Position numbers and translations under genes: made by a program. Of a DNA stretch of 64,000 nucleotides, positions 22,321 through 49,164 are shown piece after piece. This DNA is from Trypanosoma brucei. Lineage: Eukaryota. The notes under the pieces are model-generated. The model was not told the DNA's origin, made no database searches, and saw nothing but the letters and a program-made list of their open reading frames with translations. The number at the start of each line of letters is the position of its first letter. Within the stretch, counting starts at the first letter, position 1. The DNA lies in NCBI GenBank assembly GCA_000002445.1, contig AE017150.2:1024001-1088000 (forward strand), given 5' to 3'.

Positions 22321-22356
22321 TTCCCTTTCACTCAACCTTTCGTGGAAAGGGAGAAT

Positions 22357-23461: not shown

Positions 23462-24218
23462 CGTACTTAATTACTTCGTTTCCTTTAATTCGTTAGTTCA
23501 TTTTATTTAATACGTGGTCGTAATGTGCTCTGACTTCTATCTTAACGGACAGAAAGTCTCATTGCAATTGCACTGAAGCCAAATGGAGTGGAGATCCTCT
23601 CGACTCGACTCCCGCTTTTTCTCTTGTTTTGTGTTTTCTTTTTTCTTTTTTGTTCTTTTGGCTGCGTCTATTTTCACTTGACTACGACCAAGTAAGTGTG
23701 TGTCTGCGTTTGCGTTTGCGTTTGTAGTTTTTTTTTTTGCCTTTTGTGCTCCTGGTTACCAGCTTGGAACCTTTAATTCATCTCTGAATATACATATATA
23801 TGTAGCGCCTACAAACATGTGGTAGCACAATCGAAAAATTCTAATGATGCATTTGATATTTGGCGACCGTTCTACTCCTCATTTCTGTTGTGCTTTCGCA
23901 ACATTTTTTTTTGTTTTTATGCACTGAACTGTAACAGCAGTAGTGGAGGGAAGGGGTTTAAATAAGCAGTAGTAAAGAGAAGTGGGTCGAAGTGAGAGAA
24001 GAAAGGAAGGAGGATAAGTACGGTGCTGCAGTGATTGAGCGAGGAGGGAAAGGGGCGGCGAGGGCGTATACTCACTGTAGAGACCTACCGTAGGTTAAAA
24101 GACTTTTTTTTTTTTAAAGGCAAAGTAAGGTGGAAGGAAGGAGAAAAGGACCTTGGTTGAATATAGTAGCAGATTGCAAGGTGATTGTGACGTAGCCTGT
24201 AAGCTAATTAGCATTGAA

Positions 24219-33533: not shown

Positions 33534-34457
33534 ATGACGACCGCTTCTGTGAGTCAGAGTTGTTTCCCCATAATGAGTTTCTTACACGTGCCGGGAAAGA
33601 TGTCACAGCCTTTGTGGCTTATGATGGGAACCGCTTTCCTAGTGAATGTATCTCGTAGGACTGGGACGGCAGCGTGTCCTTTTGGTAGTGCAGATGCTTC
33701 CGATGGTGTTGACAGCTCTGCGCACAAGAGGAGGCGTTTCCTCCTCACAGCCAAACACACTTTTGTGCCGTGGCAGTTCACGGACCCGCAGAGGCTGAAG
33801 GTTCCTGAGGAGTATCGTCGAACGCGCTTCGTTATTGGTCGTCTTTATATCCCGGACAGTGAAGGGAAGGCTGTGGCCTCTCTGTCTGTTGACTTGAAGT
33901 TGGTGGCCATGCACCCTACTGCTGATGTTGCGGTACTAGTTGCGAAGGTTCCAACATCGGTAGCGTCGGATGCCGCGGGCACTGCTTCGAGGTCGGCCGT
34001 AAGTGAAAGGTTTGACGCACACGCCGAGCTGGAGAGGCGGGCGAATGCGGTTGGTGGTGGATTAACGTTGGCACCTGAGGACCCCCAGAAGGGCAGCGTG
34101 TGTTCCATTGCAGGATACCGTGGTACAGGCCTGCTGGGCAAATTGGACACCTTTGACCCTGATCTGTTAGATCGGTTATCGGAGACCGAGCGTGGGCAGC
34201 TTCTTTCTTCTTTACGGTGCGTGGAGGGACAGCAAGAAGCCGCAGTGGCTCGTGTTAAGATATTCCACTCAAAGGGTATGTGCCGTGCAGAGGAGGGAAG
34301 TTGTTTTCACGGCATGTCAGGGGCTCCAGTGTTGACAGATGAGAAAACATGTGGTGGTGTCTTGTACGGCAAACACCCGGATGATGCCAACAGCGTGGGG
34401 TACGTTCCCGTGCGAAGCTTTGATGGCTTCGTTTGGGACTCAGTGATTGGGAAGTGA
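33534..34457 (+). CDS. Trypsin-fold (S1-like) serine peptidase-like protein
   Basis: Candidate catalytic triad in the correct order and spacing: LTAKHTF (compare TAAHC), ADVAVLV (compare DIALL), and HGMSGAPV (compare GDSGGP). Confidence 0.45.
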   Translation: MTTASVSQSCFPIMSFLHVPGKMSQPLWLMMGTAFLVNVSRRTGTAACPFGSADASDGVDSSAHKRRRFLLTAKHTFVPWQFTDPQRLKVPEEYRRTRFVIGRLYIPDSEGKAVASLSVDLKLVAMHPTADVAVLVAKVPTSVASDAAGTASRSAVSERFDAHAELERRANAVGGGLTLAPEDPQKGSVCSIAGYRGTGLLGKLDTFDPDLLDRLSETERGQLLSSLRCVEGQQEAAVARVKIFHSKGMCRAEEGSCFHGMSGAPVLTDEKTCGGVLYGKHPDDANSVGYVPVRSFDGFVWDSVIGK

Positions 34458-34747: not shown

Positions 34748-35083
34748 ATGTCTGGTGAGGAACCCACTAAATTGCAGCGAACAGAGTCTGGTGCGAGGGT
34801 GATCAAAACCAAAGAATTTCTTCGTACCAGCGTCGCCGAGGGCCCTTTCTGTCTCCTCGACAGTGCTGTGAAGAATGGAACACGCGTGTTCATCCAGTCC
34901 CGCTACAACAAGTCCCTCGTCGCAACCGTCGTTGCCTTCGACAAACACTTTAACCTCGTGTTGCGGGATGCCGTGGAGTTAACAATGGTCAACAATGAGC
35001 AGAAAGAGCGCTCCATTCGGAACATGTTCTTGCGTGGCGCCTCTGTGGTGTTCATCGTGAGGTTGCCGCAGAGCACTGTATAG
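34748..35083 (+). CDS. SmD2: Small nuclear ribonucleoprotein SmD2
   Basis: The Sm1/Sm2 motifs align closely with human SmD2. Ours reads GPFCLLDSAVKNGTRVFIQSRYNKSLVATVVAFDKHFNLVLRDAVE...RSIRNMFLRGASVVFIV. Human reads [46 protein letters not shown]...RYISKMFLRGDSVIVVL. The start is at the first ATG (MSGEEPTK...). Confidence 0.8.
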   Translation: MSGEEPTKLQRTESGARVIKTKEFLRTSVAEGPFCLLDSAVKNGTRVFIQSRYNKSLVATVVAFDKHFNLVLRDAVELTMVNNEQKERSIRNMFLRGASVVFIVRLPQSTV

Positions 35084-35595
35084 TGGCACTGCGGCACTTG
35101 TGGGGGCGAAAATACAATACGCAGCAGCGCAGTTGCGGGAAAACGATTGTATTGAACATGGTTGTTTTTGAGTTTCTTGTTGTCGCTGCTTCGTTGTTCA
35201 TTTTTTCTTTTTCGGTGTGCTCGGCTATTCGCACCGCATTCCCCCCACAGTGTTAAGAAGCCGTGGGGGCCGTTTAGGATGCGGTGTCAAAATTTATTGT
35301 AAAAGCGGTGCGTACCTGTGTAAGAGAGAATCGTTCAACAGTTCTTCTTTTTCTTTGCGGGACGAGTTTCTCCTTCTTCACTCCGTACTCGTGGACATAA
35401 GCTAAATCCCACTTATACAGTTGCCTTTTCTTCTTACCGTTCTGCCACTACACATTTGTTTCTTACCGTAGGGAGGAATACCTTTTTGTTCTTGGCAGAC
35501 AAAAGGGACCAAACAAACAAGAGGTTAACTAGGGAACGGGTATATATATATACATATATTGATTTTTTTGCTCTACATAAATAAGAATTTATACA

Positions 35596-38500
35596 ATGGT
35601 TGCCACGGAACAATCAAGAAGAGGACAAGATCCGTGTGGAGATGTAACCGACATACGAAAACCCTCCTCAATAGAGGCAGCGGAGCCTTCAGACTATTCG
35701 TCAAGCTCAGGCAATAGAGGTGAGGGCGGACGCGAATCTCGGGGTATTTGGGCATTCAAACGTGCATCATTAGTTTCGGTACCACAAACTCCCAAAACAC
35801 ATCAAGCTAGCTGGTCAACGAGCAATAGAGAAGGAAGAGGAGGAGGAAACAGACATCGTGTGTCATGGCACCAACATCTCGATCCCCATCCTAACACAGG
35901 AGCTTCGGTAGATGATGGAGCAACTTTCTGGAAAGTTCCTCGTAAAGTTTCTGAGGATCCTGAAGATAATATGTCGACTACACACTCAATTTCCACGAGT
36001 GTATCGGATCCAGTCTCCCCATCAGCAGCAAATGTGGTAGTCAAGTCTGCGACCGCCGAAAATATTTGTGTTGGAGCTTCAACCGACGGGGAAATGAAAG
36101 CAATGCCTCACAGTATGCTGCTTGATGGGGAAGTGTGGGAGTACATATATCTTAGAAAATCGTCAGAACTGCGGGATGCCTTTGCTTCTGATATTGGCGA
36201 TGTGTTAGGTTTTCCTTTTTCGACACCCATTGAGTTTACACCCACAAGAACTGGAATATTAGCGCACTGCACATTACTGTATCCTGAGACCATGAAAACT
36301 GAAGAGCTATACGAGAGGTTATCGCGAGACAAATTTCCCGCGATGAGAAGACTATATCAAACAGCAAAACGAGAGCACATGATAACAAGTTGCTCGACGA
36401 TGTACACCACGAACATTTCTGACAGGCCCATAAGTCCATCGCCGGAAGATATGGACGGACGCCGAGGCAGCATGCAAATGATGTCTTCTGCAACTAGTAC
36501 AAACCATAAACCTGAAGAATATTGTCTGTCAAAAAGGGAAGAAAGTAGAGATGCAACAAAAGAAGATGCGACGGGAATGGACACCGAATCGCAAGAAATT
36601 CATTATAGTCGTTTCACCGAACGGTCTATGAGTCGCATATCCATGGTTCCTGCTGATATCCGTGAGGCTGGTATGTCTAAGAGCCATGTTGTGACATCGC
36701 GTGCAGCCAGTCCCAGATGTGCCAAATGTCTTGATCAGTCTATGAGTCACATATCCATGGTTCCTGCTGATGTCCGTGAGGCTGGTATGTCTAAGAGCCA
36801 TGTTGAGCCATCGCGTGCAGCCAGTCCCAGATGTGCCAAATGTCTTGATCAGTCTATGAGTCGTATATCCATGGTTCCTGCTGATATCCGTGAGGCTGGT
36901 ATGTCTAAGAGCCATGTTGTGACATCGCGTGCAGCCAGTCCCAGATGTGCCAAATGTCTTGATCAGTCTATGAGTCACATATCCATGGTTCCTGCTGATA
37001 TCCGTGAGGCTGGTATGTCTAAGAGTGAGGTTGAACCATCTTTAGCAGCCAGTCTGAAATGTGGCAAATGTCTTGATCAGTCTATGAGTCGCATATCCAC
37101 ATTGCCTGCTGATATCCGTGAGGCTGGTATGTCTAAGAGCCATGTTGTGACATCGCGTGCAGCCAGTCCCAGATGTGCCAAATGTCTTGATCAGTCTATG
37201 AGTCGCCCATCCACATTGCCTGCTGATATCCGTGAGGCTGGTATGTCTAAGAGCCATGTTGTGACATCGCGTGCAGCCAGTCCCAGATGTGCCAAATGTC
37301 TTGATCAGTCTATGAGTCGCCAATCGACATTGCCTGCTGATATCCGTGAGGCTGGTATGTCTAAGAGTGAGGTTGAGCCATCTTTAGCAGCCAGTCTGAA
37401 ATGTGGCAAATGTCTTGATCAGTCTATGAGTCGCATATCTATGATGCCTGCTGATGTCCGTGAGGCTGGTATGTCTAAGAGTGAGGTTGAGCCATCTTTA
37501 GCAGCCAGTCTGAAATGTGGCAAGTGTCTTGGTCAGTCTATGAGTCGCATATCTATGATGCCTGCTGATGTCCGTGAGGCTGGTATGTCTAAGAGCCATG
37601 TTGTGACATCGCGTGCAGCCAGTCCCAGATGTGCCAAATGTCTTGATCAGTCTATGAGTCGCATATCTATGATGCCTGCTGATGTCCGTGAGGCTGGTAT
37701 GTCTAAGAGCCATGTTGTGACATCGCGTGCAGCCAGTCCCAGATGTGCCAAATGTCTTGATCAGTCTATGAGTCGCATATCTATGATGCCTGCTGGTGTC
37801 CGTGAGGCTGGTATGTCTAAGAGCCATGTTGTGACATCGCGTGCAGCCAGTCCCAGATGTGCCAAATGTCTTGATCAGTCTATGAGTCGCATATCTATGA
37901 TGCCTGCTGATGTCCGTGAGGCTGGTATGTCTAAGAGCCATGTTGTGACATCGCGTGCAGCCAGTCCCAGATGTGCCAAATGTCTTGATCAGTCTATGAG
38001 TCGCATATCTATGATGCCTGCTGATGTCCGTGAGGCTGGTATGTCTAAGAGCCATGTTGTGACATCGCGTGCAGCCAGTCCCAGATGTGCCAAATGTCTT
38101 GATCAGTCTATGAGTCACATATCCATGGTTCCTGCTGATGTCCGTGAGGCTGGTATGTCTAAGAGCCATGTTGTGACATCGCGTGCAGCCAGTCCCAGAT
38201 GTGCCAAATGTCTTGATCAGTCTATGAGTCACATATCCATGGTTCCTGCTGATGTCCGTGAGGCTGGTATGTCTAAGAGCCATGTTGTGACATCGCGTGC
38301 AGCCAGTCCCAGATGTGCCAAATGTCTTGATCAGTCTATGAGTCGCATATCTATGATGCCTGCTGATGTCCGTGAGGCTGGTATGTCTAAGAGCCATGTT
38401 GTGACATCGCGTGCAGCCAGTCCCAGATGTGCCAAATGTCTTGATCAGTCTATGAGTCGCTCATCCACATTGCCTGCTGATGTCCGTGAGGCTGGTATGT

Positions 38501-39324
38501 CTAAGAGCCATGTAGTGACATCGCGTGCAGCCAGTCCCAGATGTGCCAAATGTCTTGATCAGTCTATGAGTCGCATATCTATGATGCCTGCTGATGTCCG
38601 TGAGGCTGGTATGTCTAAGAGCCATGTTGTGACATCGCGTGCAGCCAGTCCCAGATGTGCCAAATGTCTTGATCAGTCTATGAGTCGCATATCCACATTG
38701 CCTGCTGATATCCGTGAGGCTGGTATGTCTAAGAGCCATGTTGTGACATCGCGTGCAGCCAGTCCCAGATGTGCCAAATGTCTTGATCAGTCTATGAGTC
38801 ACATATCCATGGTTCCTGCTGATGTCCGTGAGGCTGGTATGTCTAAGAGTGAGGTTGAACCATCTTTAGCAGCCAGTCTGAGATGTGCCAAATGTCTTGA
38901 TCAGTCTATGAGTCGCATATCCACATTGCCTGCTGATATCCGTGAGGCTGGTATGTCTAAGAGCCATGTTGTGACATCGCGTGCAGCCAGTCCCAGATGT
39001 GCCAAATGTCTTGATCAGTCTATGAGTCGCATATCTATGATGCCTGCTGATGTCCGTGAGGCTGGTATGTCTAAGAGCCATGTTGTGACATCGCGTGCAG
39101 CCAGTCCCAGATGTGCCAAATGTCTTGATCAGTCTATGAGTCGCATATCCACATTGCCTGCTGATATCCGTGAGGCTGGTATGTCTAAGAGCCATGTTGT
39201 GACATCGCGTGCAGCCAGTCCCAGATGTGCCAAATGTCTTGATCAGTCTATGAGTCACATATCCATGGTTCCTGCTGATGTCCGTGAGGCTGGTATGTCT
39301 AAGAGTGAGGTTGAGCCATCGTGA
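35596..39324 (+). CDS. 38-aa-repeat protein, part 1: unique N-terminus, an NW/AFD-type domain, then about 24 copies of a 38-aa repeat; ends at an in-frame TGA inside a repeat
   Basis: ATG at 35596. The unique region is followed by the domain DGEVWEYIYLRKSSELRDAFASDIGDVLGFPFSTPIEFTPTRTGILAHCTLLYPE...LY, then 114-bp repeats encoding SMSRISMMPADVREAGMSKSHVVTSRAASPRCAKCLDQ. The architecture (more than 50 38-aa repeats) is reminiscent of trypanosome MARP-type microtubule-associated repetitive proteins, but I cannot confirm identity. Confidence 0.6.
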   Translation: MVATEQSRRGQDPCGDVTDIRKPSSIEAAEPSDYSSSSGNRGEGGRESRGIWAFKRASLVSVPQTPKTHQASWSTSNREGRGGGNRHRVSWHQHLDPHPNTGASVDDGATFWKVPRKVSEDPEDNMSTTHSISTSVSDPVSPSAANVVVKSATAENICVGASTDGEMKAMPHSMLLDGEVWEYIYLRKSSELRDAFASDIGDVLGFPFSTPIEFTPTRTGILAHCTLLYPETMKTEELYERLSRDKFPAMRRLYQTAKREHMITSCSTMYTTNISDRPISPSPEDMDGRRGSMQMMSSATSTNHKPEEYCLSKREESRDATKEDATGMDTESQEIHYSRFTERSMSRISMVPADIREAGMSKSHVVTSRAASPRCAKCLDQSMSHISMVPADVREAGMSKSHVEPSRAASPRCAKCLDQSMSRISMVPADIREAGMSKSHVVTSRAASPRCAKCLDQSMSHISMVPADIREAGMSKSEVEPSLAASLKCGKCLDQSMSRISTLPADIREAGMSKSHVVTSRAASPRCAKCLDQSMSRPSTLPADIREAGMSKSHVVTSRAASPRCAKCLDQSMSRQSTLPADIREAGMSKSEVEPSLAASLKCGKCLDQSMSRISMMPADVREAGMSKSEVEPSLAASLKCGKCLGQSMSRISMMPADVREAGMSKSHVVTSRAASPRCAKCLDQSMSRISMMPADVREAGMSKSHVVTSRAASPRCAKCLDQSMSRISMMPAGVREAGMSKSHVVTSRAASPRCAKCLDQSMSRISMMPADVREAGMSKSHVVTSRAASPRCAKCLDQSMSRISMMPADVREAGMSKSHVVTSRAASPRCAKCLDQSMSHISMVPADVREAGMSKSHVVTSRAASPRCAKCLDQSMSHISMVPADVREAGMSKSHVVTSRAASPRCAKCLDQSMSRISMMPADVREAGMSKSHVVTSRAASPRCAKCLDQSMSRSSTLPADVREAGMSKSHVVTSRAASPRCAKCLDQSMSRISMMPADVREAGMSKSHVVTSRAASPRCAKCLDQSMSRISTLPADIREAGMSKSHVVTSRAASPRCAKCLDQSMSHISMVPADVREAGMSKSEVEPSLAASLRCAKCLDQSMSRISTLPADIREAGMSKSHVVTSRAASPRCAKCLDQSMSRISMMPADVREAGMSKSHVVTSRAASPRCAKCLDQSMSRISTLPADIREAGMSKSHVVTSRAASPRCAKCLDQSMSHISMVPADVREAGMSKSEVEPS

Positions 39325-40053
39325 GCAGCCAGTCTGAGATGTGCCAAATGTCTTGATCAGTCTATGAGTCGCATATCCACATTGCCTGCTGATATCCGTG
39401 AGGCTGGTATGTCTAAGAGCCATGTTGTGACATCGCGTGCAGCCAGTCCCAGATGTGCCAAATGTCTTGATCAGTCTATGAGTCGCATATCTATGATGCC
39501 TGCTGATGTCCGTGAGGCTGGTATGTCTAAGAGCCATGTTGTGACATCGCGTGCAGCCAGTCCCAGATGTGCCAAATGTCTTGATCAGTCTATGAGTCGC
39601 ATATCCACATTGCCTGCTGATATCCGTGAGGCTGGTATGTCTAAGAGCCATGTTGTGACATCGCGTGCAGCCAGTCCCAGATGTGCCAAATGTCTTGATC
39701 AGTCTATGAGTCACATATCCATGGTTCCTGCTGATGTCCGTGAGGCTGGTATGTCTAAGAGCCATGTTGTGACATCGCGTGCAGCCAGTCCCAGATGTGC
39801 CAAATGTCTTGATCAGTCTATGAGTCGCTCATCGACATTGCCTGCTGATGTCCGTGAGGCTGGTATGTCTAAGAGTGAGGTTGAACCATCTTTAGCAGCC
39901 AGTCTGAGATGTGCCAAATGTCTTGATCAGTCTATGAGTCGCTCATCGACATTGCCTGATGATGTCCGTGAGGCTGGTATGTCTAAGAGTGAGGTTGAAC
40001 CATCTTTAGCAGCCAGTTCCAGATGTGCCAAATGTCTTGATCAGTCTATGAGT
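36616..40053 (+). repeat. 114-bp tandem repeat array 1, about 30 copies; the SHVVTSRAASPRCAK subfamily predominates
   Basis: tctatgagtcgcatatcc recurs at 114-bp intervals (for example 36625 and 36739). The array reads through the stop at 39322. Confidence 0.9.
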
Positions 40054-43000
40054 GTTGGGTCTGATTTTGTTTCTGTTTTGTTAGTTGGTGGTGTAAATGA
40101 AGTTGGCAACGACCGCTCTGGTTTCCAAAGGAAACGGTACCCCGTGTCGTGGCACAAACATTGTGATGGTCCTTCGCCGTTGCGATCTTTGTGTGATGAT
40201 GGGGCAACTTTCTGGAAAGTTCCTCGTAAAGTTTCTGAGGATCCTGAAGATAATATGTCGACTGCACACTCAATTTCCACGAGTGTATCGGATCCAGTCT
40301 CCCCATCAGCAGTAAATGTGGTGGTAAAGTACAGTGGAGCCGAAAATATTTGTGTTGGAGCTTCAACCGACGGGGAAATGAAAGCAATGCCTCACACCAT
40401 GCTGCTTGATGGGGAAGTGTGGGAGTACATATATCTTAGAAAATCGTCAGAACTGCGGGATGCCTTTGCTTCTGATATTGGCGATGTGTTAGGTTTTCCT
40501 TTTTCGACACCCATTGAGTTTACACCCACAAGAACTGGAATATTAGCGCACTGTACATTACTGTATCCTGAGACCATGAAAACTGAAGAGCTATACGAGA
40601 GGTTATCGCGAGACAAATTTCCCGCGATGAGAAGACTATATCAAACAGCAAAACGAGAGCAGATGATAACAAGTTGCTCGACGATGTACACCACGAACAT
40701 TTGTGACAGGCCCATAAGTCCACCGCCGGAAGATATGGACGGACGCCGAGGCAGCATGCAAATGATGTCTTCTGCAACTAGTACAAACCATAAACCTGAA
40801 GAATATTGTCTGTCAAAAAGGGAAGAAAGAAGAGATGCAACTAAAGAAGATGCGACGGGAATGGACACCGAATCGCAAGAAATTCATTATAGTCGTTTCA
40901 CCGAACGGTCTATGAGTCGCATATCCATGGTTCCTGCTGATGTCCGTGAGGCTGGTATGTCTAAGAGTGAGGTTGAACCATCTTTAGCAGCCAGTCTGAG
41001 ATGTGCCAAATGTCTTGATCAGTCTATGAGTCACATATCTATGATGCCTGCTGATGTCCGTGAGGCTGGTATGTCTAAGAGTGAGGTTGAGCCATCTTTA
41101 GCAGCCAGTCTGAGATGTGCCAAATGTCTTGATCAGTCTATGAGTCGCATATCTATGATGCCTGCTGATGTCCGTGAGGCTGGTATGTCTCAGAGCCAAA
41201 TTGGAACATTACCCGCAACTATTCCCGTTTATTGCCCACAATTGCTTGAGCGCTGTATGAGCTGTGCTTCTACTATACTTGCTGATGTCCGTGAGGCTGG
41301 TATGTCTCAGAGCCAGATTGGAACATTACCCGCAAGTATTCCCGTTTATTGCCCACAATTGCTTGAGCGCTGTATGAGCTGTGCTTCTACTATACTTGCT
41401 GATGTCCGTGAGGCTGGTATGTCTCAGAGCCAGATTGGAACATTACCCGCAACTATTCCCGTTTATTGCCCACAATTGCTTGAGCGCTGTATGAGCTGTG
41501 CTTCTACTATACTTGCTGATGTCCGTGAGGCTGGTATGTCTCAGAGCCAGATTGGAACATTACCCGCAACTATTCCCGTTTATTGCCCACAATTGCTTGA
41601 GCGCTGTATGAGCTGTGCTTCTACTATACTTGCTGATGTCCGTGAGGCTGGTATGTCTAAGAGTGAGGTTGAACCATCTTTAGCAGCCAGTCCCAGATGT
41701 GCCAAATGTCTTGATCAGTCTATGAGTCGCATATCTATGATGCCTGCTGATGTCCGTGAGGCTGGTATGTCTAAGAGTGAGGTTGAACCATCTTTAGCAG
41801 CCAGTCTGAGATGTGGCAAATGTCTTGATCAGTCTATGAGTCGCATATCTATGATGCCTGCTGATATCCGTGAGGCTGGTATGTCTAAGAGTGAGGTTGA
41901 ACCATCTTTAGCAGCCAGTCTGAAATATGGCAAATGTCTTGATCAGTCTATGAGTCGCATATCTATGATGCCTGCTGATGTCCGTGAGGCTGGTATGTCT
42001 AAGAGTGAGGTTGAACCATCTTTAGCAGCCAGTCTGAGATGTGGCAAATGTCTTGATCAGTCTATGAGTCGCATATCTATGATGCCTGCTGATATCCGTG
42101 AGGCTGGTATGTCTAAGAGTGAGGTTGAACCATCTTTAGCAGCCAGTCTGAGATGTGGCAAATGTCTTGATCAGTCTATGAGTCGCATATCTATGATGCC
42201 TGCTGATGTCCGTGAGGCTGGTATGTCTAAGAGTGAGGTTGAACCATCTTTAGCAGCCAGTCTGAGATGTGGCAAATGTCTTGATCAGTCTATGAGTCGC
42301 ATATCTATGATGCCTGCTGATGTCCGTGAGGCTGGTATGTCTAAGAGTGAGGTTGAACCATCTTTAGCAGCCAGTCTGAGATGTGCCAAATGTCTTGATC
42401 AGTCTATGAGTCGCATATCTATGATGCCTGCTGATATCCGTGAGGCTGGTATGTCTAAGAGTGAGGTTGAACCATCTTTAGCAGCCAGTCTGAAATATGG
42501 CAAATGTCTTGATCAGTCTATGAGTCGCATATCTATGATGCCTGCTGATGTCCGTGAGGCTGGTATGTCTAAGAGTGAGGTTGAACCATCTTTAGCAGCC
42601 AGTCTGAGATGTGCCAAATGTCTTGATCAGTCTATGAGTCGCATATCTATGATGCCTGCTGATATCCGTGAGGCTGGTATGTCTAAGAGTGAGGTTGAAC
42701 CATCTTTAGCAGCCAGTCTGAAATATGGCAAATGTCTTGATCAGTCTATGAGTCGCATATCTATGATGCCTGCTGATATCCGTGAGGCTGGTATGTCTAG
42801 GAGTGAGGTTGAACCATCTTTAGCAGCCAGTCTGAAATATGGCAAATGTCTTGATCAGTCTATGAGTCGCATATCTATGATGCCTGCTGATGTCCGTGAG
42901 GCTGGTATGTCTAAGAGTGAGGTTGAACCATCTTTAGCAGCCAGTCTGAAATATGGCAAATGTCTTGATCAGTCTATGAGTCGCATATCTATGATGCCTG

Positions 43001-45342
43001 CTGATATCCGTGAGGCTGGTATGTCTAGGAGTGAGGTTGAACCATCTTTAGCAGCCAGTCTGAAATGTGGCAAATGTCTTGATCAGTCTATGAGTCGCAT
43101 ATCTATGATGCCTGCTGATGTCCGTGAGGCTGGTATGTCTAAGAGTGAGGTTGAACCATCTTTAGCAGCCAGTCTGAAATATGGCAAATGTCTTGATCAG
43201 TCTATGAGTCGCATATCTATGATGCCTGCTGATATCCGTGAGGCTGGTATGTCTAGGAGTGAGGTTGAACCATCTTTAGCAGCCAGTCTGAAATGTGGCA
43301 AATGTCTTGATCAGTCTATGAGTCGCATATCTATGATGCCTGCTGATGTCCGTGAGGCTGGTATGTCTAAGAGTGAGGTTGAACCATCTTTAGCAGCCAG
43401 TCTGAAATATGGCAAATGTCTTGATCAGTCTATGAGTCGCATATCTATGATGCCTGCTGATGTCCGTGAGGCTGGTATGTCTAAGAGTGAGGTTGAACCA
43501 TCTTTAGCAGCCAGTCTGAAATGTGGCAAATGTCTTGATCAGTCTATGAGTCGCATATCCATGATGCCTGCTGATGTCCGTGAGGCTGGTATGTCTAAGA
43601 GTGAGGTTGAACCATCTTTAGCAGCCAGTCTGAAATATGGCAAATGTCTTGATCAGTCTATGAGTCGCATATCTATGATGCCTGCTGATGTCCGTGAGGC
43701 TGGTATGTGTAAAAGGGGTGAAGCGGAGTCACTTGTTGTTAGTTCAAATAGCCGTGAGGTTAATGGTGGTGTTAAGAATTTATCCAGTGGTAATTCTTCT
43801 GCATCGTTGGACGGTAGGAAGTTTGTTTGTTCGTCGGGCAAAAGTGGTGATTATTCCGCTTCTTTCGGTGACGGTGGTTGTTGTCAAATCGTCGGTGGTG
43901 CTGAAGCGGGTGGTGTTGTTGTCTTAGAGGAATTTCGAGACATACCGAGTGGTGCTGGTTCGAATTTACCGGTACCTGTTGATGAAGTTCCTGGCGGTGG
44001 TGTGAGAATGTCGTCCGATGTTGATAAAAGCGTTTCCGGTGGCTTGTTAGAAGTATTAAAGAATTGTTCGTCTTCCAGGGGAGGTGAAAGTTTTCCGTTA
44101 GTTGCAGTTCAAGCGCTGGCGAGTCGCCAGTCTGAAAATCGCCAACCGGTGCGATGCTCTTTCAATTCTGTTGCTGAAGGCAGGTACTACGACTCGGGTC
44201 TTTTGGATGAGCGTAACGATTGGTGCGTTCCTCCCCGTGGTGTGATGCAGGGTGCAGTTGGCAGCGCACTGTGTCTTGTAAGGGGCGTTGGCGCGGTTAA
44301 TTTTGATGGATCGCCGGACATAAGCGTCACTTCTGTGGCTTCTTCTGTTGGTGATAAAGTGCCTTCGATGATTAGAGGTGAACAACGCAGGGCGAGCACC
44401 AACAGTGCTTTGCCAGATGTCGTGCCGAAAGTTGCTGACCCACCTCTTGAAGCTCCGGTTTCTTTAATTGAGGGTGAAAAAGTGTCTGTGGCCTGGGAGT
44501 CACAATTTGGGGGTAGTGCAGATCCAAAGGAGCGTTTTCTGGATCTCTCTACAACACCTCAGCATGAAAATCCGTCTCGGTTTCTCTCAAGAATGGGTAG
44601 CCTCTGTCGTTGGGGCCTCGGGTCGCAGAAGGCAAAATGTGAGGACAGCGCGGAGACGCTGAAGCGATGGGCGCAGGATAGTACCAAATATCTTATAGGA
44701 GTTCAGGAACCGGACACCGTTGCGGAGGAGTTGCCGTCCCTATCAGATGCCCGCGGAATGCCACCAATGGTGAAAGCTAGTAGCTCGTCGGATAAAAATT
44801 TCTCGCAACTTGGTCCTTTTGACACAAGCAATGGGGACCATAAGGGAGAGGAACTGACCACTTTAAGGAGGTGGTCAAAGAGTAATCAAGGGAAGAGTAT
44901 TGCCGGCAGTGGTACGGAGGAACCACGTAGCATAGCAACAAGGAATTCAGATCCAAATCTGCCTCTGTTGCGGATTCGCAAAAGTGCCAGTGGTTCGCCA
45001 CTGCTTCCGCTGGCTACGGGTGACAAAGGCCTTGCAAAGTGGGAAGATGATGGCGTCACTTCGTTACCCCCCATTATATCTCAGAGCGCAAACACTCCGC
45101 TTGGGTGCGATGCCGCTTCAAAACGGAGAGTAGGTGACAGTTACGTTTGGGATATACGCGATGTGAGCATGTCGTCGGCTTCCCCTAACACCTCTTATCT
45201 GGACATTGAGGCTGAGGGTGAAGCGTTCGATATATTCAAACGCCTCTTGCACGATATTGATGTTGCAAGTCGAGCCATCTCTAAGCCTGTACAAGCGCTT
45301 AGAGAGCTGCGTGACGGGAGGAAGTATGAAAATTCCTCGTGA
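39364..45342 (+). CDS. 38-aa-repeat protein, part 2 (same frame, immediately downstream of the TGA): repeats, a second copy of the N-terminal domain, about 25 more repeats, and a unique 545-aa Ser/Gly-rich C-terminus
   Basis: The ORF is continuous in the same frame as part 1 and is interrupted only by the TGA at 39322-39324. It may be one gene (35596-45342) broken by a sequencing error or real nonsense mutation, or two tandem paralogues merged in assembly. There is no independent ATG/UTR for this half. Confidence 0.4.
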   Translation: MSRISTLPADIREAGMSKSHVVTSRAASPRCAKCLDQSMSRISMMPADVREAGMSKSHVVTSRAASPRCAKCLDQSMSRISTLPADIREAGMSKSHVVTSRAASPRCAKCLDQSMSHISMVPADVREAGMSKSHVVTSRAASPRCAKCLDQSMSRSSTLPADVREAGMSKSEVEPSLAASLRCAKCLDQSMSRSSTLPDDVREAGMSKSEVEPSLAASSRCAKCLDQSMSVGSDFVSVLLVGGVNEVGNDRSGFQRKRYPVSWHKHCDGPSPLRSLCDDGATFWKVPRKVSEDPEDNMSTAHSISTSVSDPVSPSAVNVVVKYSGAENICVGASTDGEMKAMPHTMLLDGEVWEYIYLRKSSELRDAFASDIGDVLGFPFSTPIEFTPTRTGILAHCTLLYPETMKTEELYERLSRDKFPAMRRLYQTAKREQMITSCSTMYTTNICDRPISPPPEDMDGRRGSMQMMSSATSTNHKPEEYCLSKREERRDATKEDATGMDTESQEIHYSRFTERSMSRISMVPADVREAGMSKSEVEPSLAASLRCAKCLDQSMSHISMMPADVREAGMSKSEVEPSLAASLRCAKCLDQSMSRISMMPADVREAGMSQSQIGTLPATIPVYCPQLLERCMSCASTILADVREAGMSQSQIGTLPASIPVYCPQLLERCMSCASTILADVREAGMSQSQIGTLPATIPVYCPQLLERCMSCASTILADVREAGMSQSQIGTLPATIPVYCPQLLERCMSCASTILADVREAGMSKSEVEPSLAASPRCAKCLDQSMSRISMMPADVREAGMSKSEVEPSLAASLRCGKCLDQSMSRISMMPADIREAGMSKSEVEPSLAASLKYGKCLDQSMSRISMMPADVREAGMSKSEVEPSLAASLRCGKCLDQSMSRISMMPADIREAGMSKSEVEPSLAASLRCGKCLDQSMSRISMMPADVREAGMSKSEVEPSLAASLRCGKCLDQSMSRISMMPADVREAGMSKSEVEPSLAASLRCAKCLDQSMSRISMMPADIREAGMSKSEVEPSLAASLKYGKCLDQSMSRISMMPADVREAGMSKSEVEPSLAASLRCAKCLDQSMSRISMMPADIREAGMSKSEVEPSLAASLKYGKCLDQSMSRISMMPADIREAGMSRSEVEPSLAASLKYGKCLDQSMSRISMMPADVREAGMSKSEVEPSLAASLKYGKCLDQSMSRISMMPADIREAGMSRSEVEPSLAASLKCGKCLDQSMSRISMMPADVREAGMSKSEVEPSLAASLKYGKCLDQSMSRISMMPADIREAGMSRSEVEPSLAASLKCGKCLDQSMSRISMMPADVREAGMSKSEVEPSLAASLKYGKCLDQSMSRISMMPADVREAGMSKSEVEPSLAASLKCGKCLDQSMSRISMMPADVREAGMSKSEVEPSLAASLKYGKCLDQSMSRISMMPADVREAGMCKRGEAESLVVSSNSREVNGGVKNLSSGNSSASLDGRKFVCSSGKSGDYSASFGDGGCCQIVGGAEAGGVVVLEEFRDIPSGAGSNLPVPVDEVPGGGVRMSSDVDKSVSGGLLEVLKNCSSSRGGESFPLVAVQALASRQSENRQPVRCSFNSVAEGRYYDSGLLDERNDWCVPPRGVMQGAVGSALCLVRGVGAVNFDGSPDISVTSVASSVGDKVPSMIRGEQRRASTNSALPDVVPKVADPPLEAPVSLIEGEKVSVAWESQFGGSADPKERFLDLSTTPQHENPSRFLSRMGSLCRWGLGSQKAKCEDSAETLKRWAQDSTKYLIGVQEPDTVAEELPSLSDARGMPPMVKASSSSDKNFSQLGPFDTSNGDHKGEELTTLRRWSKSNQGKSIAGSGTEEPRSIATRNSDPNLPLLRIRKSASGSPLLPLATGDKGLAKWEDDGVTSLPPIISQSANTPLGCDAASKRRVGDSYVWDIRDVSMSSASPNTSYLDIEAEGEAFDIFKRLLHDIDVASRAISKPVQALRELRDGRKYENSS
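40905..43710 (+). repeat. 114-bp tandem repeat array 2, about 24.6 copies; the SEVEPSLAASL[RK][CY][GA]K subfamily predominates, with four 117-bp variant units at about 41190-41650
   Basis: Same period. The variant unit encodes SQSQIGTLPATIPVYCPQLLERCMSCASTILADVREAGM (39 aa; gctgatgtcc at 41281 and 41398, spacing 117). Confidence 0.9.
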
Positions 45343-47805
45343 TGATTGTGTTGTTATTGTTGTGTTAAAGTTGTCTCTTTTTGTTCTTCTCTTTTTGTCT
45401 GTTTTACTAAACTGATTTCTGTTGTGTCGGTTGTTTTTGCCGACCAGGTTAGGTGACATATAGAAGTGCAAATATTCATCTGGTTGTGTGTCTTTTTCCT
45501 TGTTTTTCTCCTATATTCTGATACAAACAAGCATATGTACCCTCATTTCTCTTGTCTCCCCCTCGTTGTTTTACGTTTATTTGGTGTATATTTCTGTTTG
45601 TATATGCATGTACTCGGGGTGAGACATTGATGCTTCTTTAATTTGCGCTGGCTGTAGTTTCCTACTTTGTTTCCACTTTGCTGTGAGGTTTTTGTTTTGT
45701 TTTTTGTTTTATGTTTTTTCTGAATTATCTTGTCAGGTGTTTATTCACTCTGCCTCATTCCATTACGTTTCTGCGTTTTCCCTAGCCCCTGTTTTGCGGT
45801 TCCATTCCCCTTGTTCTTGTTCTTGTGATTTTGCTCTCGGTTTCTTTATTGAGTTGCAGCGTGTATTTGGATACATATGTATGTTCTCATATGTTTACGC
45901 CATAAGACCCCGCATGCACATATTTTTTTCTGTGAAAGTACACAAGTTAATGCATGCGTACCCGCGGAGGTGATGCATTATTATACCCACCTCAACTTTG
46001 TTTTACTTTTTTACTTTTTTTCTTTTGTCTTTTTGTTACGGTGTTCCCATAATTATGATCATATTTCCCATATTTCCTTTTGTTTTTTTTCAAATTCTTC
46101 CCACCACGATTTTACTGTTTTAGGCGACTTTTTTGTGTTTCGGTGGTTAAATGCCGTTTCATTTTCGCTTGACAGCTCTCTTCTTTTTCTTTTTTTTTTT
46201 AGTGAAAAAAAAATAATTCTTTAATTTGTTTAAAAAACAACACAACACAACACAGAATCACCAAATGAGATAAAACTATTAGATAATACGGGTGGCAGCG
46301 GCAAGTTGTGTCCGTGTGTGTCTGTTTGTGGTTGCGAAGGACTCACCGCAATTTTTTTTTTATTTTGATGAGATCAAAAGAAAAAAAAAGAAAAGAAAGG
46401 TACCATATATTTTTATTTCAAGAGATTTAACTTTTCCCAAACCAAGCTGGTTGCTTGTTGCTTTTCTTTTCTTTTCTTTTTTTTACCCCTTTGTTTTTGT
46501 TCCCTCTGACTCTCTCTCTCTCTTTCTCTCTCTCTGTTTATTTGCTTTTTATTTCGTTTGTTTCAACTGATTGGGTTAACAAAAAATGGGGTAGATAAAA
46601 GTATAAAAAGATTGAGCGGAATGATTTCATGTGAGTGAGTGTTATGAATGAACATATCGAGGTGAGGATGAACAACAGCAACAAAAAGAGAAAAAAAAAT
46701 GTACAAGAGAGAGAAGAAAGCAAACAAATATAAAAAAAAAGGGAATTTATGTACCATCCCATACGTAGAGGAGGAGGAGGAGGTTGTGTTAAATTGAAGT
46801 GAGATAGTATGAGTTTAAAGAAACAAAATCATAATCTTGATGATGGTAACAAAAATTGTACATGACCGTTGCGACGAAAGTACAGGTAAAAATGAAGTGA
46901 AGCGAGAGGGGTGGAAAGGAAGGGAAAAGAATCAAACAGCTCGTTCCTACACACATGTTAAATGTTTATATAAATTAATGTGTGTACATATGTGTATAAG
47001 TAGGATACGGATGTAGTTACGCCATAAATTCTGACGCGAGGGAAGGCGCAGAGGAGTGGCGTAATAGGAAAGTAAATTTAATCGGGGTAACAACTGCAGC
47101 CCCCCCCCCCCAAAAAAAAAGAAATATAATGATGCATACACAGGTGTCTGCATTTGTATGCAACTGAGGATGTGTATAACTTTTTTTCTTTTTTTTCTTT
47201 TTCTCTTGTGCGTGCTAGCTTTTTCACTTTTTATTTTGTCCTTGTCCTTCTTCTATTTTACGTTTTCTCTCGCAATTAATCTGCGCCACGACAGCAGAGT
47301 CTCCTTTTTTTTTGTTTTCGTCCACTCACTGTAGGAAACCATTTTGTCTCCCGACCCTCTCTACTCCTTTCCCGTGATACGAAATGGCTAAACATGCGCG
47401 TACATGAGAGCGCGGTAAATGAAGTGTAAAAAAAAAAAGGGAATCGGGAGAGGTACACGCCATGAGTTGTGTGTTAGCAATATGAGGAGCGTACGACTTA
47501 TTTCAGCGAGTGATTGTAGTTTGTGGAAGTGAAACTGACATTACTGTGGAGTGCAGTTACTCGGGATAATCCGTCACTCACCCACTCACTAAATTTATTA
47601 TTATTATTATTGTTATGATTAACGTGTTGTTTGGTACTTTTGTTTTTGTTCCTATTTCAGTCATCTGCATCTATTTCCCCTCTTTTTAAAAAAAAAATTT
47701 ATCTTGATTCCCTCTTTTGTTAGTGCCGTGTCCAGTACATCGTTGCAGAAGAACGTAAAAAGGGAGCGGCGCGACGGTGCTTTTGCATCAGTCGGTACGT
47801 TTTAC

Positions 47806-49164
47806 ATGTGGCGGATCACGCGGCTCTGCTGCAAACAACTCATACGGGATGAATCTTTAGTTTCCCTTCCACCCGCTGTGCACCGATTGGAAGTTTACCG
47901 AAACGCCGTAAGTGTTGACTGCGAGGAGCGCATCTGCGCGGAGTTGGGCCTTCTGCTGCAACGTGAGGGACACACCGCCTTTGCTGAGGGCTCCACTCCG
48001 CAGCAGAAGATTGTGAAGCACACATATTTGGAACTGCATGGTGCTCATAAGGACTTTACGGAGGTGAAGAGTTTCCAACGGAAGGAGACGCGGAGACTCC
48101 CTGGTTTATTATGGTCCCCCACTCTTGTGTCATGGATGAATGAAGTGGTGCCACGGGTACGTGTGTTTCCAGTGGGTGTAATGCCAGACACGGCAAGGGT
48201 TGTGGAACATAATATGACAGGATATGAAATGCATATGGAGCACCCCACCGTTGGTTGTTCTTTTCTTTACTTATCGTTGCTATCTGATACGGTCCTCACG
48301 TTCGACGATGAGGCTACGGGGCGCTATGGTGAAGTGTTTCTCCCCCAACGTGCGTTAATGTGCTGCTCCGGCGAGATTCGTTGGGGCTGGCGCTTCGGCG
48401 AGCAGTCTCGTGAGGTGCACACATTTGTTAATGCTTCTGGCGTTCGACGGGTTGTGGAGCCGGATCTGCGGCTGAGTGTGCAGTTGTGGAAGTTTACACC
48501 ACAATTGCTGGATGCGCGGCTGCTGCAGGATCGTGTTGAGGAGTCAATGAAGCAAAGGGAGGCTGAGGAGTCAAATGAAGTAGTCGAAACCATTGCTGTG
48601 GACCGTAAGAAGAATGAAGAGGAGCATAAGGGCTCTGCCTCCTCCCATGCATTGTTTAGCGCCCTAGCGGAAAAAGGTGCCTCCGGGACAGGGCCTCTCG
48701 GTGGTGAGTATGTGGAGGGGAGAACGCAGGCCTGCAAGGGTGTGGAAGGAAAGAGCATGACGATGGAAGATATTGGTCGGGACTACAACACCTACAAGCA
48801 ACAGTTTCAAAACGTTCACGGTGTGCTACAAGAGATGAAGGCACTGCAGGATGCGGGTCAACCCATCAATGACATGTGGCTGAGGAAGCGTATACTTGAT
48901 GGTCAGAAGGATGACAATCATGACGCGCAGGACGGTTTCGATCCAAACGATGTGGAGGGAACGTGGGATCGTGTGGATGCAAAGGCACGGTTCTACAAGG
49001 CACGCCTGAAGGGTATGGACTACGATGGCACCGCCAACAGCAACAGCTCGATGCCGGATGTGACAGAAGACGCTCCTCTTGATATGAAGAAGACAATTCA
49101 GAAGATCGCCCCACTCGTAAAGGACGGCGATAAGATCCTTGCGAGCCTGCCGTGTGGTCAATGA
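47806..49164 (+). CDS. AlkB-like 2-oxoglutarate/Fe(II)-dependent dioxygenase superfamily protein, with a charged C-terminal extension
   Basis: The ordered motifs are YEMHMEHP (an HxD/E-type iron ligand), a downstream His (REVHTF), and RLSVQLWKF (the RxS-hydrophobic-TFR 2OG-binding motif of the AlkB family). The start was moved from the track's TTG (47704) to the first ATG. Confidence 0.4.
   Translation: MWRITRLCCKQLIRDESLVSLPPAVHRLEVYRNAVSVDCEERICAELGLLLQREGHTAFAEGSTPQQKIVKHTYLELHGAHKDFTEVKSFQRKETRRLPGLLWSPTLVSWMNEVVPRVRVFPVGVMPDTARVVEHNMTGYEMHMEHPTVGCSFLYLSLLSDTVLTFDDEATGRYGEVFLPQRALMCCSGEIRWGWRFGEQSREVHTFVNASGVRRVVEPDLRLSVQLWKFTPQLLDARLLQDRVEESMKQREAEESNEVVETIAVDRKKNEEEHKGSASSHALFSALAEKGASGTGPLGGEYVEGRTQACKGVEGKSMTMEDIGRDYNTYKQQFQNVHGVLQEMKALQDAGQPINDMWLRKRILDGQKDDNHDAQDGFDPNDVEGTWDRVDAKARFYKARLKGMDYDGTANSNSSMPDVTEDAPLDMKKTIQKIAPLVKDGDKILASLPCGQ

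What the first reader, a model, noticed from the sequence alone, without database searches (positions are those of the whole stretch)
35596..45342. 4284-bp internal direct duplication and an in-frame TGA inside a perfect 38-aa repeat
The N-terminal domain plus a repeat array occurs twice, with an offset of 4284 bp. The spurious antisense ORFs 36108-36332, 36236-36493 and 36357-36584 recur at 40392-40616, 40520-40777 and 40641-40868. The first copy ends at TGA 39322-39324, where the repeat reads 'gagccatcgtgagcagcc' instead of the usual 'ga[ag]ccatctttagcagcc' (two T-to-G changes). Reading continues in the same frame through about 6 more repeats and the second domain copy to 45342. This is either one roughly 3200-aa gene hit by an error or nonsense mutation, or two tandem paralogues whose intergenic region was lost or collapsed during assembly of the repeats.
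Basis: seen in the sequence. Interest (0 to 1): 0.7.

Follow-up and report, generated by a model that had tools for sequence, protein, structure and literature searches.

The report
Known mis-split trypanosome flagellar-tip gene

Summary
A 714-bp block recurs at offset 4284 (693/714 identical). A single in-frame TGA (39322-39324) sits in unit 24 of a 30-unit, 114-bp array, and the frame stays open to 45342.

The window is T. b. brucei TREU927 chromosome 2. ORF1 (1242 aa) has the length of Tb927.2.5860, and the remainder corresponds to Tb927.2.5870. Cosentino et al. 2021 (PMC8445201) reported one 2788-aa gene in Lister 427 (Tb427_020030800) and called the TREU927 models wrongly split. TrypTag tagging and APEX2 proteomics place the product at the flagellar tip.

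New support found here:
- The layout domain, array 1, junction, domain, array 2, C-terminus recurs in DAL972 and in two T. equiperdum assemblies.
- DAL972 has no stop across it; its two models are split by a 100-N gap.
- The TGA 12-mer occurs only in this window.
- No intergenic-type sequence follows the TGA.
- A T. cruzi marinkellei homologue carries both the N-terminal domain and the C-terminal region in one 831-aa protein.

It is therefore one gene. The TGA is a reference error (my estimate about 60%) or a TREU927 haplotype-specific nonsense allele (about 25-30%). The idea of two paralogues with a lost spacer is rejected. Interest is low and the case is already known.

The parts
35201..35435 (+). 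Cluster of polypyrimidine tracts upstream of the ATG. This is the likely trans-splice acceptor region of the gene (inference).
   Evidence: four C/T runs of 12-15 nt lie here. Comparable runs reappear only after 45384.
35596..45342 (+). The whole coding region: one 3248-codon frame holding Tb927.2.5860 (35596-39324) and Tb927.2.5870 (the remainder). It is interrupted only by the TGA at 39322.
   Evidence: ORF1 is 1242 aa, the length of Tb927.2.5860 in the supplement of PMC8445201. Flanking proteins are exact TREU927 proteins.
35596..36624 (+). N-terminal unique region of 343 aa. Only 35911-36624 is duplicated downstream.
   Evidence: It is 339/343 identical to the DAL972 N-terminus.
36109..36363 (+). 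FAZ1_cons (PF23398) domain, copy 1.
36625..40044 (+). Array 1: 30 units of 114 bp (38 aa), mostly the basic 'HVVTSR' type, with net charge +62 and pI 9.5.
38563..39761 (+). Two copies of a 456-bp (4-unit) higher-order repeat. They are identical over 743 bp except at three clustered sites that include the stop.
   Evidence: the only differences are 38859A/39315G, 38865T/39321G and 38867T/39323G.
39322..39324 (+). In-frame TGA where sibling units have TTA (Leu) or CGT (Arg). It is the annotated end of Tb927.2.5860.
   Evidence: The 12-mer CCATCGTGAGCA occurs once in the window and not at all in the DAL972 and T. b. equiperdum loci.
40045..40194 (+). Junction specific to copy 2, in frame, linking array 1 to the second domain. 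It has only weak similarity to 35850-35910.
   Evidence: It is present in DAL972 and T. b. equiperdum at 98.7% and in T. equiperdum OVI at 140/141.
40195..40908 (+). Second copy of the 714-bp block 35911-36624. It contains FAZ1_cons copy 2 at 40393-40647.
   Evidence: 693/714 nt identical to copy 1, with 5 synonymous and 10 non-synonymous codon differences. Pfam 40.7 bits.
40909..43656 (+). Array 2: 24 units, 20 of 114 bp ('EVEPSL' type, about neutral) and four of 117 bp.
41137..41604 (+). Four 117-bp (39-aa) variant units ('SQSQIGTLPATIPVYCPQLLER'). They are why register at offset 4284 is lost.
   Evidence: The same units occur four times in T. b. equiperdum and twice in DAL972.
43657..45342 (+). 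C-terminal unique region of 561 aa plus the terminal TGA. Its last ~60-85 residues are the most widely conserved part.
   Evidence: Identical at nucleotide level in T. equiperdum OVI. Exhaustive phmmer hits the C-termini of T. vivax and T. cruzi marinkellei proteins.
45384..47687 (+). Pyrimidine-rich, low-GC intergenic region after the gene (inferred 3' UTR and the next splice-acceptor region).

Best explanation
35596-45342 is a single gene of T. brucei TREU927 chromosome 2, annotated as two models: Tb927.2.5860 and Tb927.2.5870.

Architecture (shown here):
- N-terminal region with a ferredoxin-like FAZ1_cons domain.
- 30 basic 38-aa units.
- A second, 97%-identical copy of the domain block.
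- 24 near-neutral units.
- A 561-aa C-terminal region.

The protein is large (about 3250 aa in this reference, 2788 aa in Lister 427). It localises to the distal tip of the flagellum, close to adenylate cyclase AC1 and to FLAM8. That localisation is shown in the literature, not by me.

The TGA at 39322 is not a gene boundary. It is a single T-to-G difference (TTA to TGA) inside a 743-bp near-perfect higher-order repeat. I judge it most likely (about 60%) a base-call or consensus error of the Sanger reference. Otherwise (about 25-30%) it is a nonsense allele carried by the sequenced TREU927 haplotype.

The internal duplication is real. It arose by duplication of a 'domain + array' module within the gene, and the T. 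cruzi marinkellei homologue suggests that one domain is the ancestral state.

Mechanism (inferred):
- The two folded domains and the conserved C-terminal motif act as docking elements.
- The serine-rich, probably disordered 38-aa arrays act as extended spacers or binding surfaces in the tip complex.
- The basic first array is a candidate binder of acidic tubulin or membrane surfaces.
For: Identity:
- Flanking 307-aa and 452-aa proteins are exact TREU927 entries XP_951728.1 and XP_951732.1, on a 1,193,948-bp contig.
- ORF1 is 1242 aa, the length of Tb927.2.5860.
- The neighbour order fits: LSm, this gene, Tb927.2.5890, Tb927.2.5900, then HSP104/ClpB and a PI-PLC gene.

Single gene, from the literature:
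- PMC8445201 reports one gene, Tb427_020030800 (2788 aa), in Lister 427 and calls TREU927 'wrongly split'.
- In TrypTag, the N-terminal tag on 5860 and the C-terminal tag on 5870 go to the flagellar tip. The two tags that break the gene give a cytoplasmic signal.
- TrypTag tags TREU927 genes in procyclic forms.
- Both halves top the AC1 tip proximity proteome, with ratios 15.88 and 10.71.

- 2005 open codons follow the TGA, against 131 and 240 stops in the other frames.
- No pyrimidine tract lies between 35436 and 45383 except a duplicated coding 12-mer.
- In DAL972 the frame is open from array 1 through junction, domain 2 and array 2 into the C-terminal region (L007 170-7516). Its upstream model has no stop and simply abuts a 100-N gap.
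- The long-read T. b. equiperdum assembly has the same order of parts.
- The T. equiperdum OVI scaffold holds both paralogue-specific variant sets and the copy-2 junction.
- The TGA 12-mer is absent from these loci.
- T. cruzi marinkellei MOQ_009507 (831 aa) has FAZ1_cons (42.8 bits). It matches the N-terminus (E 4e-15) and two collinear parts of the C-terminus (E 2e-5, 2e-7) in one polypeptide.

Domain and repeats:
- Both domain copies pass Pfam's cutoff.
- The domain model has pLDDT 82.5.
- A model of four repeat units has pLDDT 33.
Against: - I could not inspect TREU927 reads, so error and real allele are not separated.
- The three clustered differences, two of them synonymous, could also be a short gene-conversion patch. 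That would make the TGA a real sequence.
- The TrypTag inference assumes that tag position itself does not cause mislocalisation.
- I did not see the Lister 427 sequence, only its length and the paper's description.
- The T. b. equiperdum array 1 has several 112- and 113-bp units, so that assembly does not give a clean ORF. No gene is called there. I attribute this to long-read indel errors, which is an inference.
- The functional mechanism of the arrays is inference only.
Confidence: 0.87

Rival explanations
1. The TGA is a genuine nonsense allele of the sequenced TREU927 haplotype, heterozygous or strain-specific. That allele would then make only a 1242-aa N-terminal fragment, while the other allele makes the full-length tip protein.
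For: - From my own knowledge, TREU927 chromosome 2 was sequenced from BAC clones, so a single haplotype would be captured.
- Allele-specific premature stops are documented in T. brucei, and their mRNAs are not degraded (PMC8445201).
- The change is flanked by two synonymous differences within 9 bp. That resembles a small conversion or mutation patch as much as a miscall.
Against: - The TGA 12-mer is absent from the DAL972 and T. b. equiperdum loci, and the 427 gene is intact.
- The stop lies in a 743-bp near-identical repeat, where Sanger consensus errors are plausible.
- TrypTag N- and C-terminal tags both reach the tip, so at least one full-length allele exists.
Confidence: 0.27
2. These are two tandem paralogous genes whose intergenic spacer was lost or collapsed in assembly.
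For: - Each half carries a FAZ1_cons domain followed by an array.
- TREU927 and DAL972 annotations list two models.
Against: - The array-1 to domain-2 junction is in frame and matches in three further assemblies, one of them long-read.
- There is no pyrimidine-rich spacer.
- Copy 2 lacks the first ~105 codons and any start context of its own.
- The DAL972 split is a 100-N gap, not a stop.
- Lister 427 has one ORF, and tags placed at the internal 'ends' mislocalise.
- The T. cruzi marinkellei homologue is one protein.
Confidence: 0.02
3. The TGA is decoded by programmed recoding, either as selenocysteine or by stop-codon read-through.
For: The frame continues perfectly after the TGA. From my own knowledge, T. 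brucei has selenocysteine machinery.
Against: - Rfam at gathering thresholds finds no SECIS anywhere in the window, only U2 snRNA.
- The 49 other 114-bp units of the two arrays read Leu (26) or Arg (23) at this codon, never Cys, Sec or stop.
- Other strains lack the codon.
Confidence: 0.01
4. The internal duplication itself is an assembly artefact of the TREU927 reference.
For: Repeat-rich genes are often mis-assembled. The T. equiperdum OVI scaffold does mis-join the two copies.
Against: - The two copies differ at 21 of 714 sites, and copy 2 has its own junction.
- The same architecture occurs in DAL972 and in the long-read T. b. equiperdum assembly.
- The Lister 427 length is compatible with it: 2788-343-288-561 = 1596 = 42 x 38 (arithmetic; suggestive only).
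Confidence: 0.02

Closest known systems
Tb427_020030800 (T. brucei Lister 427 v10), the published single-gene version of Tb927.2.5860 plus Tb927.2.5870 (Cosentino, Brink and Siegel 2021, PMC8445201)
   Same: It occupies the same locus between the LSm gene and the Tb927.2.5890 orthologue. The first 1239 aa align without gaps at 91.4% to Tb927.2.5860. It is the same flagellar-tip protein.
   Different: It is 2788 aa against 3248 codons here, so it has fewer repeat units, and it has no internal stop. I did not see its sequence, so its two-domain layout is inferred from arithmetic and from other strains.
FLAM8 (Tb927.2.5760), the 3106-aa ORF at 9981-19301 in this window
   Same: It is also a giant flagellar distal-tip protein and lies in the same polycistron, 16 kb upstream. 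It shares the FAZ1_cons domain, with invariant His, Gly, Trp, Ala, Asp, Pro, Gly, Pro, Leu and Tyr columns.
   Different: FLAM8 has about 15-17 domain copies spaced about 150-175 aa apart and no 38-aa arrays. Domain identity to this gene is only 14-22%.
FAZ1 and the Pfam family PF23398 (FAZ1_cons)
   Same: Both domain copies score above Pfam's gathering cutoff.
[quoted passage not shown]
   Same: Both are very large proteins made mostly of tandem 38-aa units. In MARP-1 the units are the microtubule-binding motif (PMC2289396). The 38-residue period of the present gene is kept in T. congolense, T. vivax and T. cruzi marinkellei homologues even though the unit sequences differ.
   Different: No sequence similarity was shown: a search that included two units returned no MARP. 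MARPs decorate the cell-body (subpellicular) microtubule array, not the flagellar tip. They have no FAZ1_cons domain that I know of. Microtubule binding of this protein is untested.

Membership tests
Tb927.2.5860/Tb927.2.5870 locus of T. brucei TREU927 (same gene as Tb427_020030800) | Chromosome 2 position between Tb927.2.5830/5850 and Tb927.2.5890/5900, with flanking proteins identical to TREU927 entries | tested here: met
   The 307-aa and 452-aa neighbours are exact matches to XP_951728.1 and XP_951732.1. An LSm gene lies between. Starting at the second Met, the next ORF gives 1057 aa, the length of Tb927.2.5900.
Tb927.2.5860/Tb927.2.5870 locus of T. brucei TREU927 (same gene as Tb427_020030800) | First gene model of 1242 aa | tested here: met
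   ORF 35596-39324 is 1242 aa. Tb927.2.5860 is 1242 aa in Supplementary Table S2 of PMC8445201.
Tb927.2.5860/Tb927.2.5870 locus of T. brucei TREU927 (same gene as Tb427_020030800) | Continuous ORF across the split point in other strains | tested here: met
   DAL972 is open from array 1 into the C-terminal region, and its upstream model has no stop. Lister 427 has a single 2788-aa CDS according to the paper. The T. b. equiperdum long-read locus is collinear but carries 1-2 bp deletions.
Tb927.2.5860/Tb927.2.5870 locus of T. brucei TREU927 (same gene as Tb427_020030800) | Flagellar distal-tip localisation of the product | not testable with these tools
   Literature only: TrypTag as cited in PMC8445201 and APEX2 proximity proteomics in PMC8141408.
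FAZ1_cons (PF23398) domain proteins (FAZ1, FLAM8) | Score above Pfam's gathering threshold of 27.5 bits | tested here: met
   Copy 1 scores 39.6 bits and copy 2 scores 40.7 bits. The T. congolense and T. cruzi marinkellei homologues score 39.6 and 42.8 bits.
FAZ1_cons (PF23398) domain proteins (FAZ1, FLAM8) | Conserved core residues and a compact fold shared with the FLAM8 domains | tested here: met
   A 15-sequence alignment has 10 invariant columns. The AlphaFold model has pLDDT 82.5.
MARP-type 38-aa-repeat microtubule-binding proteins | Tandem units of 38 residues making up most of the protein | tested here: met
   There are 50 units of 38 aa plus four of 39 aa. The 38-aa period is also present in homologues.
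MARP-type 38-aa-repeat microtubule-binding proteins | Sequence similarity of the unit to the MARP unit | tested here: inconclusive
   No MARP sequence was available to me. The database search that included two units returned only the T. congolense orthologue, but T. brucei entries for this gene were also missing from that database.
MARP-type 38-aa-repeat microtubule-binding proteins | Binding of the repeats to microtubules | not testable with these tools
   This needs a co-sedimentation or transfection assay as in PMC2289396.
Selenoprotein or recoded UGA | SECIS element in the transcript | tested here: not met
   An Rfam gathering-threshold scan of all 64 kb found only U2 snRNA.
Selenoprotein or recoded UGA | Cys or Sec at the homologous position of paralogous units or orthologues | tested here: not met
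   Sibling 114-bp units encode Leu (TTA, 26 units) or Arg (CGT, 23 units). The TGA variant is absent from other strains.
Two independent tandem genes in a trypanosome polycistron | Intergenic spacer with polypyrimidine tract(s) for trans-splicing and polyadenylation | tested here: not met
   No such tract lies between 35436 and 45383 apart from a coding 12-mer, whereas the flanks have many.

The most novel reading that the evidence does not exclude
The 38-residue unit length may be a conserved 'ruler'. It is kept in the T. brucei, T. congolense, T. vivax and T. cruzi marinkellei homologues while the unit sequence has diverged almost completely, and it equals the unit length of the microtubule-binding MARP repeats. 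On this reading the protein would bind the axonemal microtubule lattice at the flagellar tip through its arrays. The Trypanozoon-specific duplication of the 'domain + array' module would then have created one basic array (+62) and one neutral array with different binding properties. Separately, the TGA could be a natural haplotype-specific truncation in TREU927.
Probability: 0.15. Interest if true: 0.45.

Novelty: already known. Interest (0 to 1): 0.15.

Why it matters
- Users of the TREU927 reference (TriTrypDB, TrypTag, proteomics, RNAi screens) treat Tb927.2.5860 and Tb927.2.5870 as two genes. Treating them as one changes how tagging, knock-down and proteomic results for this flagellar-tip component are read.
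- The gene lies close to the AC1/FLAM8 signalling region at the tip, so the correct gene model matters for work on that region.
- The mis-split itself has been published, so nothing here changes the field.

Tried and rejected
- The word-indexed protein search with the domain block found nothing. Exact look-ups of both ORF products found nothing either. The database seems to lack the T. brucei entries for this gene, so I went through neighbouring proteins and cluster members instead.
- The composite query returned only the T. congolense orthologue, and its locus is not on record. I therefore could not check whether T. congolense has the second domain copy.
- The afdb50 fold library was unavailable.
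- AlphaFold on four repeat units gave pLDDT 33. That fits disorder, but the alignment was shallow.
- Pfam 'hits' on the repeat array (AAA_lid_At3g28540, DUF5339 and others) have no single stretch passing on its own. They are summed scores of repeated weak matches and I rejected them.
- Arithmetic on the 427 length (1596 = 42 x 38) suggests the same architecture without 39-aa units. Because T. b. equiperdum and DAL972 do have 39-aa units, I treat this as suggestive only.
- I considered whether the TGA unit is a column-wise mosaic of the two unit types: at the four differing positions it reads G, T, G, A, against T, T, T, A and G, C, G, T. This fits both a consensus error and a conversion patch, so it is not decisive.
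- MARP membership could not be tested because I had no MARP sequence.
Full report
**1. What the window is.** All long ORFs lie on the + strand and GC skew is uniformly positive, as in a trypanosomatid polycistron. The ClpB/HSP104-like ORF at 60458-63070 is encoded identically in T. b. gambiense DAL972 chromosome 2 and in T. equiperdum OVI, and is followed by a PI-PLC gene. The 307-aa ORF (33534-34457) and the 452-aa ORF (47806-49164) are exact matches to T. b. brucei TREU927 proteins XP_951728.1 and XP_951732.1, on a 1,193,948-bp contig. The window is therefore TREU927 chromosome 2. The 3106-aa ORF at 9981-19301 carries 17 FAZ1_cons stretches. It is FLAM8, Tb927.2.5760; the gene ID comes from PMC8141408.

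**2. Check of the observation.** ORF1 runs from 35596 to 39324 (1242 aa) and ends at TGA 39322-39324 in the context gagccatcgtgagcagcc. The same frame stays open to 45342. This is the only in-frame stop in 3248 codons. Downstream of it the other frames carry 131 and 240 stops, and the 561-codon unique C-terminal part has 0 stops against 20 and 57.

The offset-4284 identity is real, but it holds only for about 35870-36920. The near-identical block is 35911-36624 versus 40195-40908, at 693/714 nt. The antisense ORFs recur as stated and follow trivially from the duplication.

**3. Anatomy**.
- N-terminal region: 343 aa.
- Array 1: 30 x 114 bp (36625-40044), mostly 'HVVTSR' units, net charge +62, pI 9.5.
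- Junction specific to copy 2: 150 bp (40045-40194).
- Second copy of the domain block: 40195-40908.
- Array 2: 40909-43656, with 20 x 114 bp 'EVEPSL' units and four 117-bp variant units at 41137-41604. Net charge is -5. The 117-bp units are what break the register.
- C-terminal region: 561 aa.

The stop is in unit 24. Array 1 has a 456-bp higher-order repeat. The stretches 38563-39305 and 39019-39761 differ at only three sites within 9 bp: 39315 (synonymous), 39321 (synonymous) and 39323 (TTA to TGA). One base therefore makes the stop, and it sits in a 743-bp near-perfect repeat.

**4. No gene boundary at the TGA.** Pyrimidine tracts of 12 nt or more cluster upstream of the ATG (35201-35435) and after 45384. 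Between them there is only one coding 12-mer, which is itself duplicated. Copy 2 has no N-terminus of its own.

**5. Already published.** A literature search on the neighbouring gene IDs led to Cosentino, Brink and Siegel 2021 (PMC8445201).
- In the long-read Lister 427 v10 assembly the locus is one gene, Tb427_020030800 (2788 aa). Its first 1239 residues align without gaps at 91.4% to Tb927.2.5860, which is 1242 aa, exactly ORF1.
- They cite TrypTag: the N-terminal tag on 5860 and the C-terminal tag on 5870 go to the flagellar tip, while the C-terminal tag on 5860 and the N-terminal tag on 5870 are cytoplasmic.
- TrypTag tags TREU927 genes in procyclic forms.

From this I infer that a 1242-aa product is not enough for tip targeting. 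The N-tagged tip protein must then be longer than 1242 aa, so at least one allele in that TREU927-derived line reads past the TGA position.

Vélez-Ramírez et al. 2021 (PMC8141408) list both halves as the two top entries of the AC1 tip proximity proteome, above FLAM8.

**6. New comparative evidence.**
- DAL972 (L007, L008) has two models of 1181 aa and 2415 aa. The first has no stop and abuts a 100-N gap. The second starts right after the gap.
- In DAL972 the frame is open from array 1 through junction (148/150 identical), domain 2 and array 2 into the C-terminal region. The split there is an assembly gap.
- The long-read T. b. equiperdum assembly (L006, L009) has the same order of parts, including four 117-bp units. 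Several array-1 units are 112 or 113 bp long, and no gene is called. I read these short units as long-read indel errors (inference).
- The T. equiperdum OVI short-read scaffold breaks in the arrays. It still contains the copy-2 junction (140/141) and both sets of paralogue-specific variants, swapped across an N-gap. Its C-terminal 1686 nt are identical to the window.
- The 12-mer CCATCGTGAGCA occurs once in the window and never in the DAL972 or T. b. equiperdum loci.

**7. More distant relatives.**
- The word-indexed search found only T. congolense TCIL3000_2_1530, at 37% identity and with FAZ1_cons at 39.6 bits.
- An exhaustive phmmer search with the C-terminal 561 aa found two proteins: T. 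vivax KAH8615927.1, a partial protein with eleven 38-aa units and the C-terminal motif (E 1e-12 pairwise), and T. cruzi marinkellei MOQ_009507 (831 aa).
- MOQ_009507 has one FAZ1_cons domain (42.8 bits). It matches the window's N-terminal domain (E 4e-15) and two collinear parts of its C-terminal region (E 2e-5 and 2e-7). Two 38-aa units lie in between.
- The '5860' and '5870' parts therefore sit in one polypeptide outside the African trypanosomes. A single-domain layout is probably ancestral.
- The 38-residue period is conserved in all four species although the unit sequences differ.

**8. The protein.**
- Both domain copies pass Pfam's cutoff for FAZ1_cons and align with the FLAM8 domains over ten invariant columns.
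- Four repeat units give pLDDT 33.
- The units are Ser/Thr-rich. Most carry a CxxC motif, 46 in the whole protein, and CxxC is also present in the T. congolense units.
- The mechanism I propose is inference: docking through the folded domains and the conserved C-terminal motif, with long flexible arrays acting as spacers or binding surfaces.

**9. Rivals.**
- Real haplotype-specific nonsense allele: not excluded, about 0.27.
- Two paralogues with a lost spacer: contradicted by the conserved in-frame junction, the missing spacer signals, the 427 ORF and the one-polypeptide homologue.
- Recoding: no SECIS in the window, and sibling units encode Leu or Arg.
- Duplication as an artefact: contradicted by three other assemblies.

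**10. Verdict.** The case is already known, so interest is low. The one open point is whether the TGA exists in TREU927 DNA, which long reads or a k-mer count would settle.

Noticed in passing
window 9981-19301 (+): This 3106-aa ORF is FLAM8 (Tb927.2.5760). It has about 15-17 FAZ1_cons-type domains. Three pairs of the domain segments I aligned are nearly or fully identical (11766/12219, 12675/13128, 15144/15636), which points to recent internal tandem duplications. FLAM8 and the gene under study are both flagellar-tip proteins, share this domain and lie 16 kb apart in one polycistron.
   Followed up: partly
window 36625-43656; P0001, P0008, P0009: The 38-residue repeat period is conserved in the T. 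congolense, T. vivax (11 units seen) and T. cruzi marinkellei (2 units) homologues, although the unit sequences are almost unrelated. MARP-1 and MARP-2 have the same unit length.
   Followed up: partly
window 36625-40044 versus 40909-43656: The two arrays differ sharply in charge. Array 1 has net +62 and pI 9.5; array 2 has net -5 and pI 5.7. Array 2 is also more homogeneous, with 99% identity at offset 228 bp, where V/I and RC/KY units alternate.
   Followed up: no
L007 171-270 and L008 12065-15607 (T. b. gambiense DAL972, FN554965.1): DAL972 also annotates two genes here (1181 aa and 2415 aa), but the split is a 100-N assembly gap inside array 1, not a stop. DAL972 also has a 1-bp deletion at the equivalent of window 45067. 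It shifts the frame of the last ~90 codons and ends the model 209 bp early.
   Followed up: partly
L006 129-3035 and L009 (T. b. equiperdum GCA_003543875.1, CM010673.1): The long-read assembly has 112- and 113-bp units (1-2 bp deletions) in array 1, a frameshift in the N-terminal region, and GAA changed to TAA four codons before the normal stop. No gene is called across about 8.4 kb. These are probably uncorrected long-read indels.
   Followed up: partly
L004 12553-12564 (T. equiperdum OVI, CZPT02001887.1): The scaffold joins the upstream region of copy 1 to the junction of copy 2 across a 10-N gap, and the paralogue-specific variants are swapped. The two domain copies have been mis-joined and about 4 kb of the gene is missing.
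   Followed up: yes
window 689-837 (+): U2 spliceosomal snRNA gene (Rfam RF00004, 83.2 bits). It is the only Rfam family found at gathering thresholds in the window.
   Followed up: no
window 34748-35083 (+): A small LSm-domain gene of 111 aa lies just upstream. It is called in the T. equiperdum and DAL972 loci and corresponds to Tb927.2.5850. It fell below my ORF length cut-offs of 150 and 200 aa in the window listings.
   Followed up: no
window 22288-23355 and 24153-28850 (+): There is an FBPase-family ORF; from memory this is the sedoheptulose-1,7-bisphosphatase Tb927.2.5800. There is also an SPT6-like ORF with YqgF and SH2_2 domains. These are ordinary neighbours.
   Followed up: no
databases: The large protein collection holds the TREU927 neighbours of this gene, but no T. 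brucei-group entry for the gene itself. Direct homology searches therefore looked empty.
   Followed up: partly
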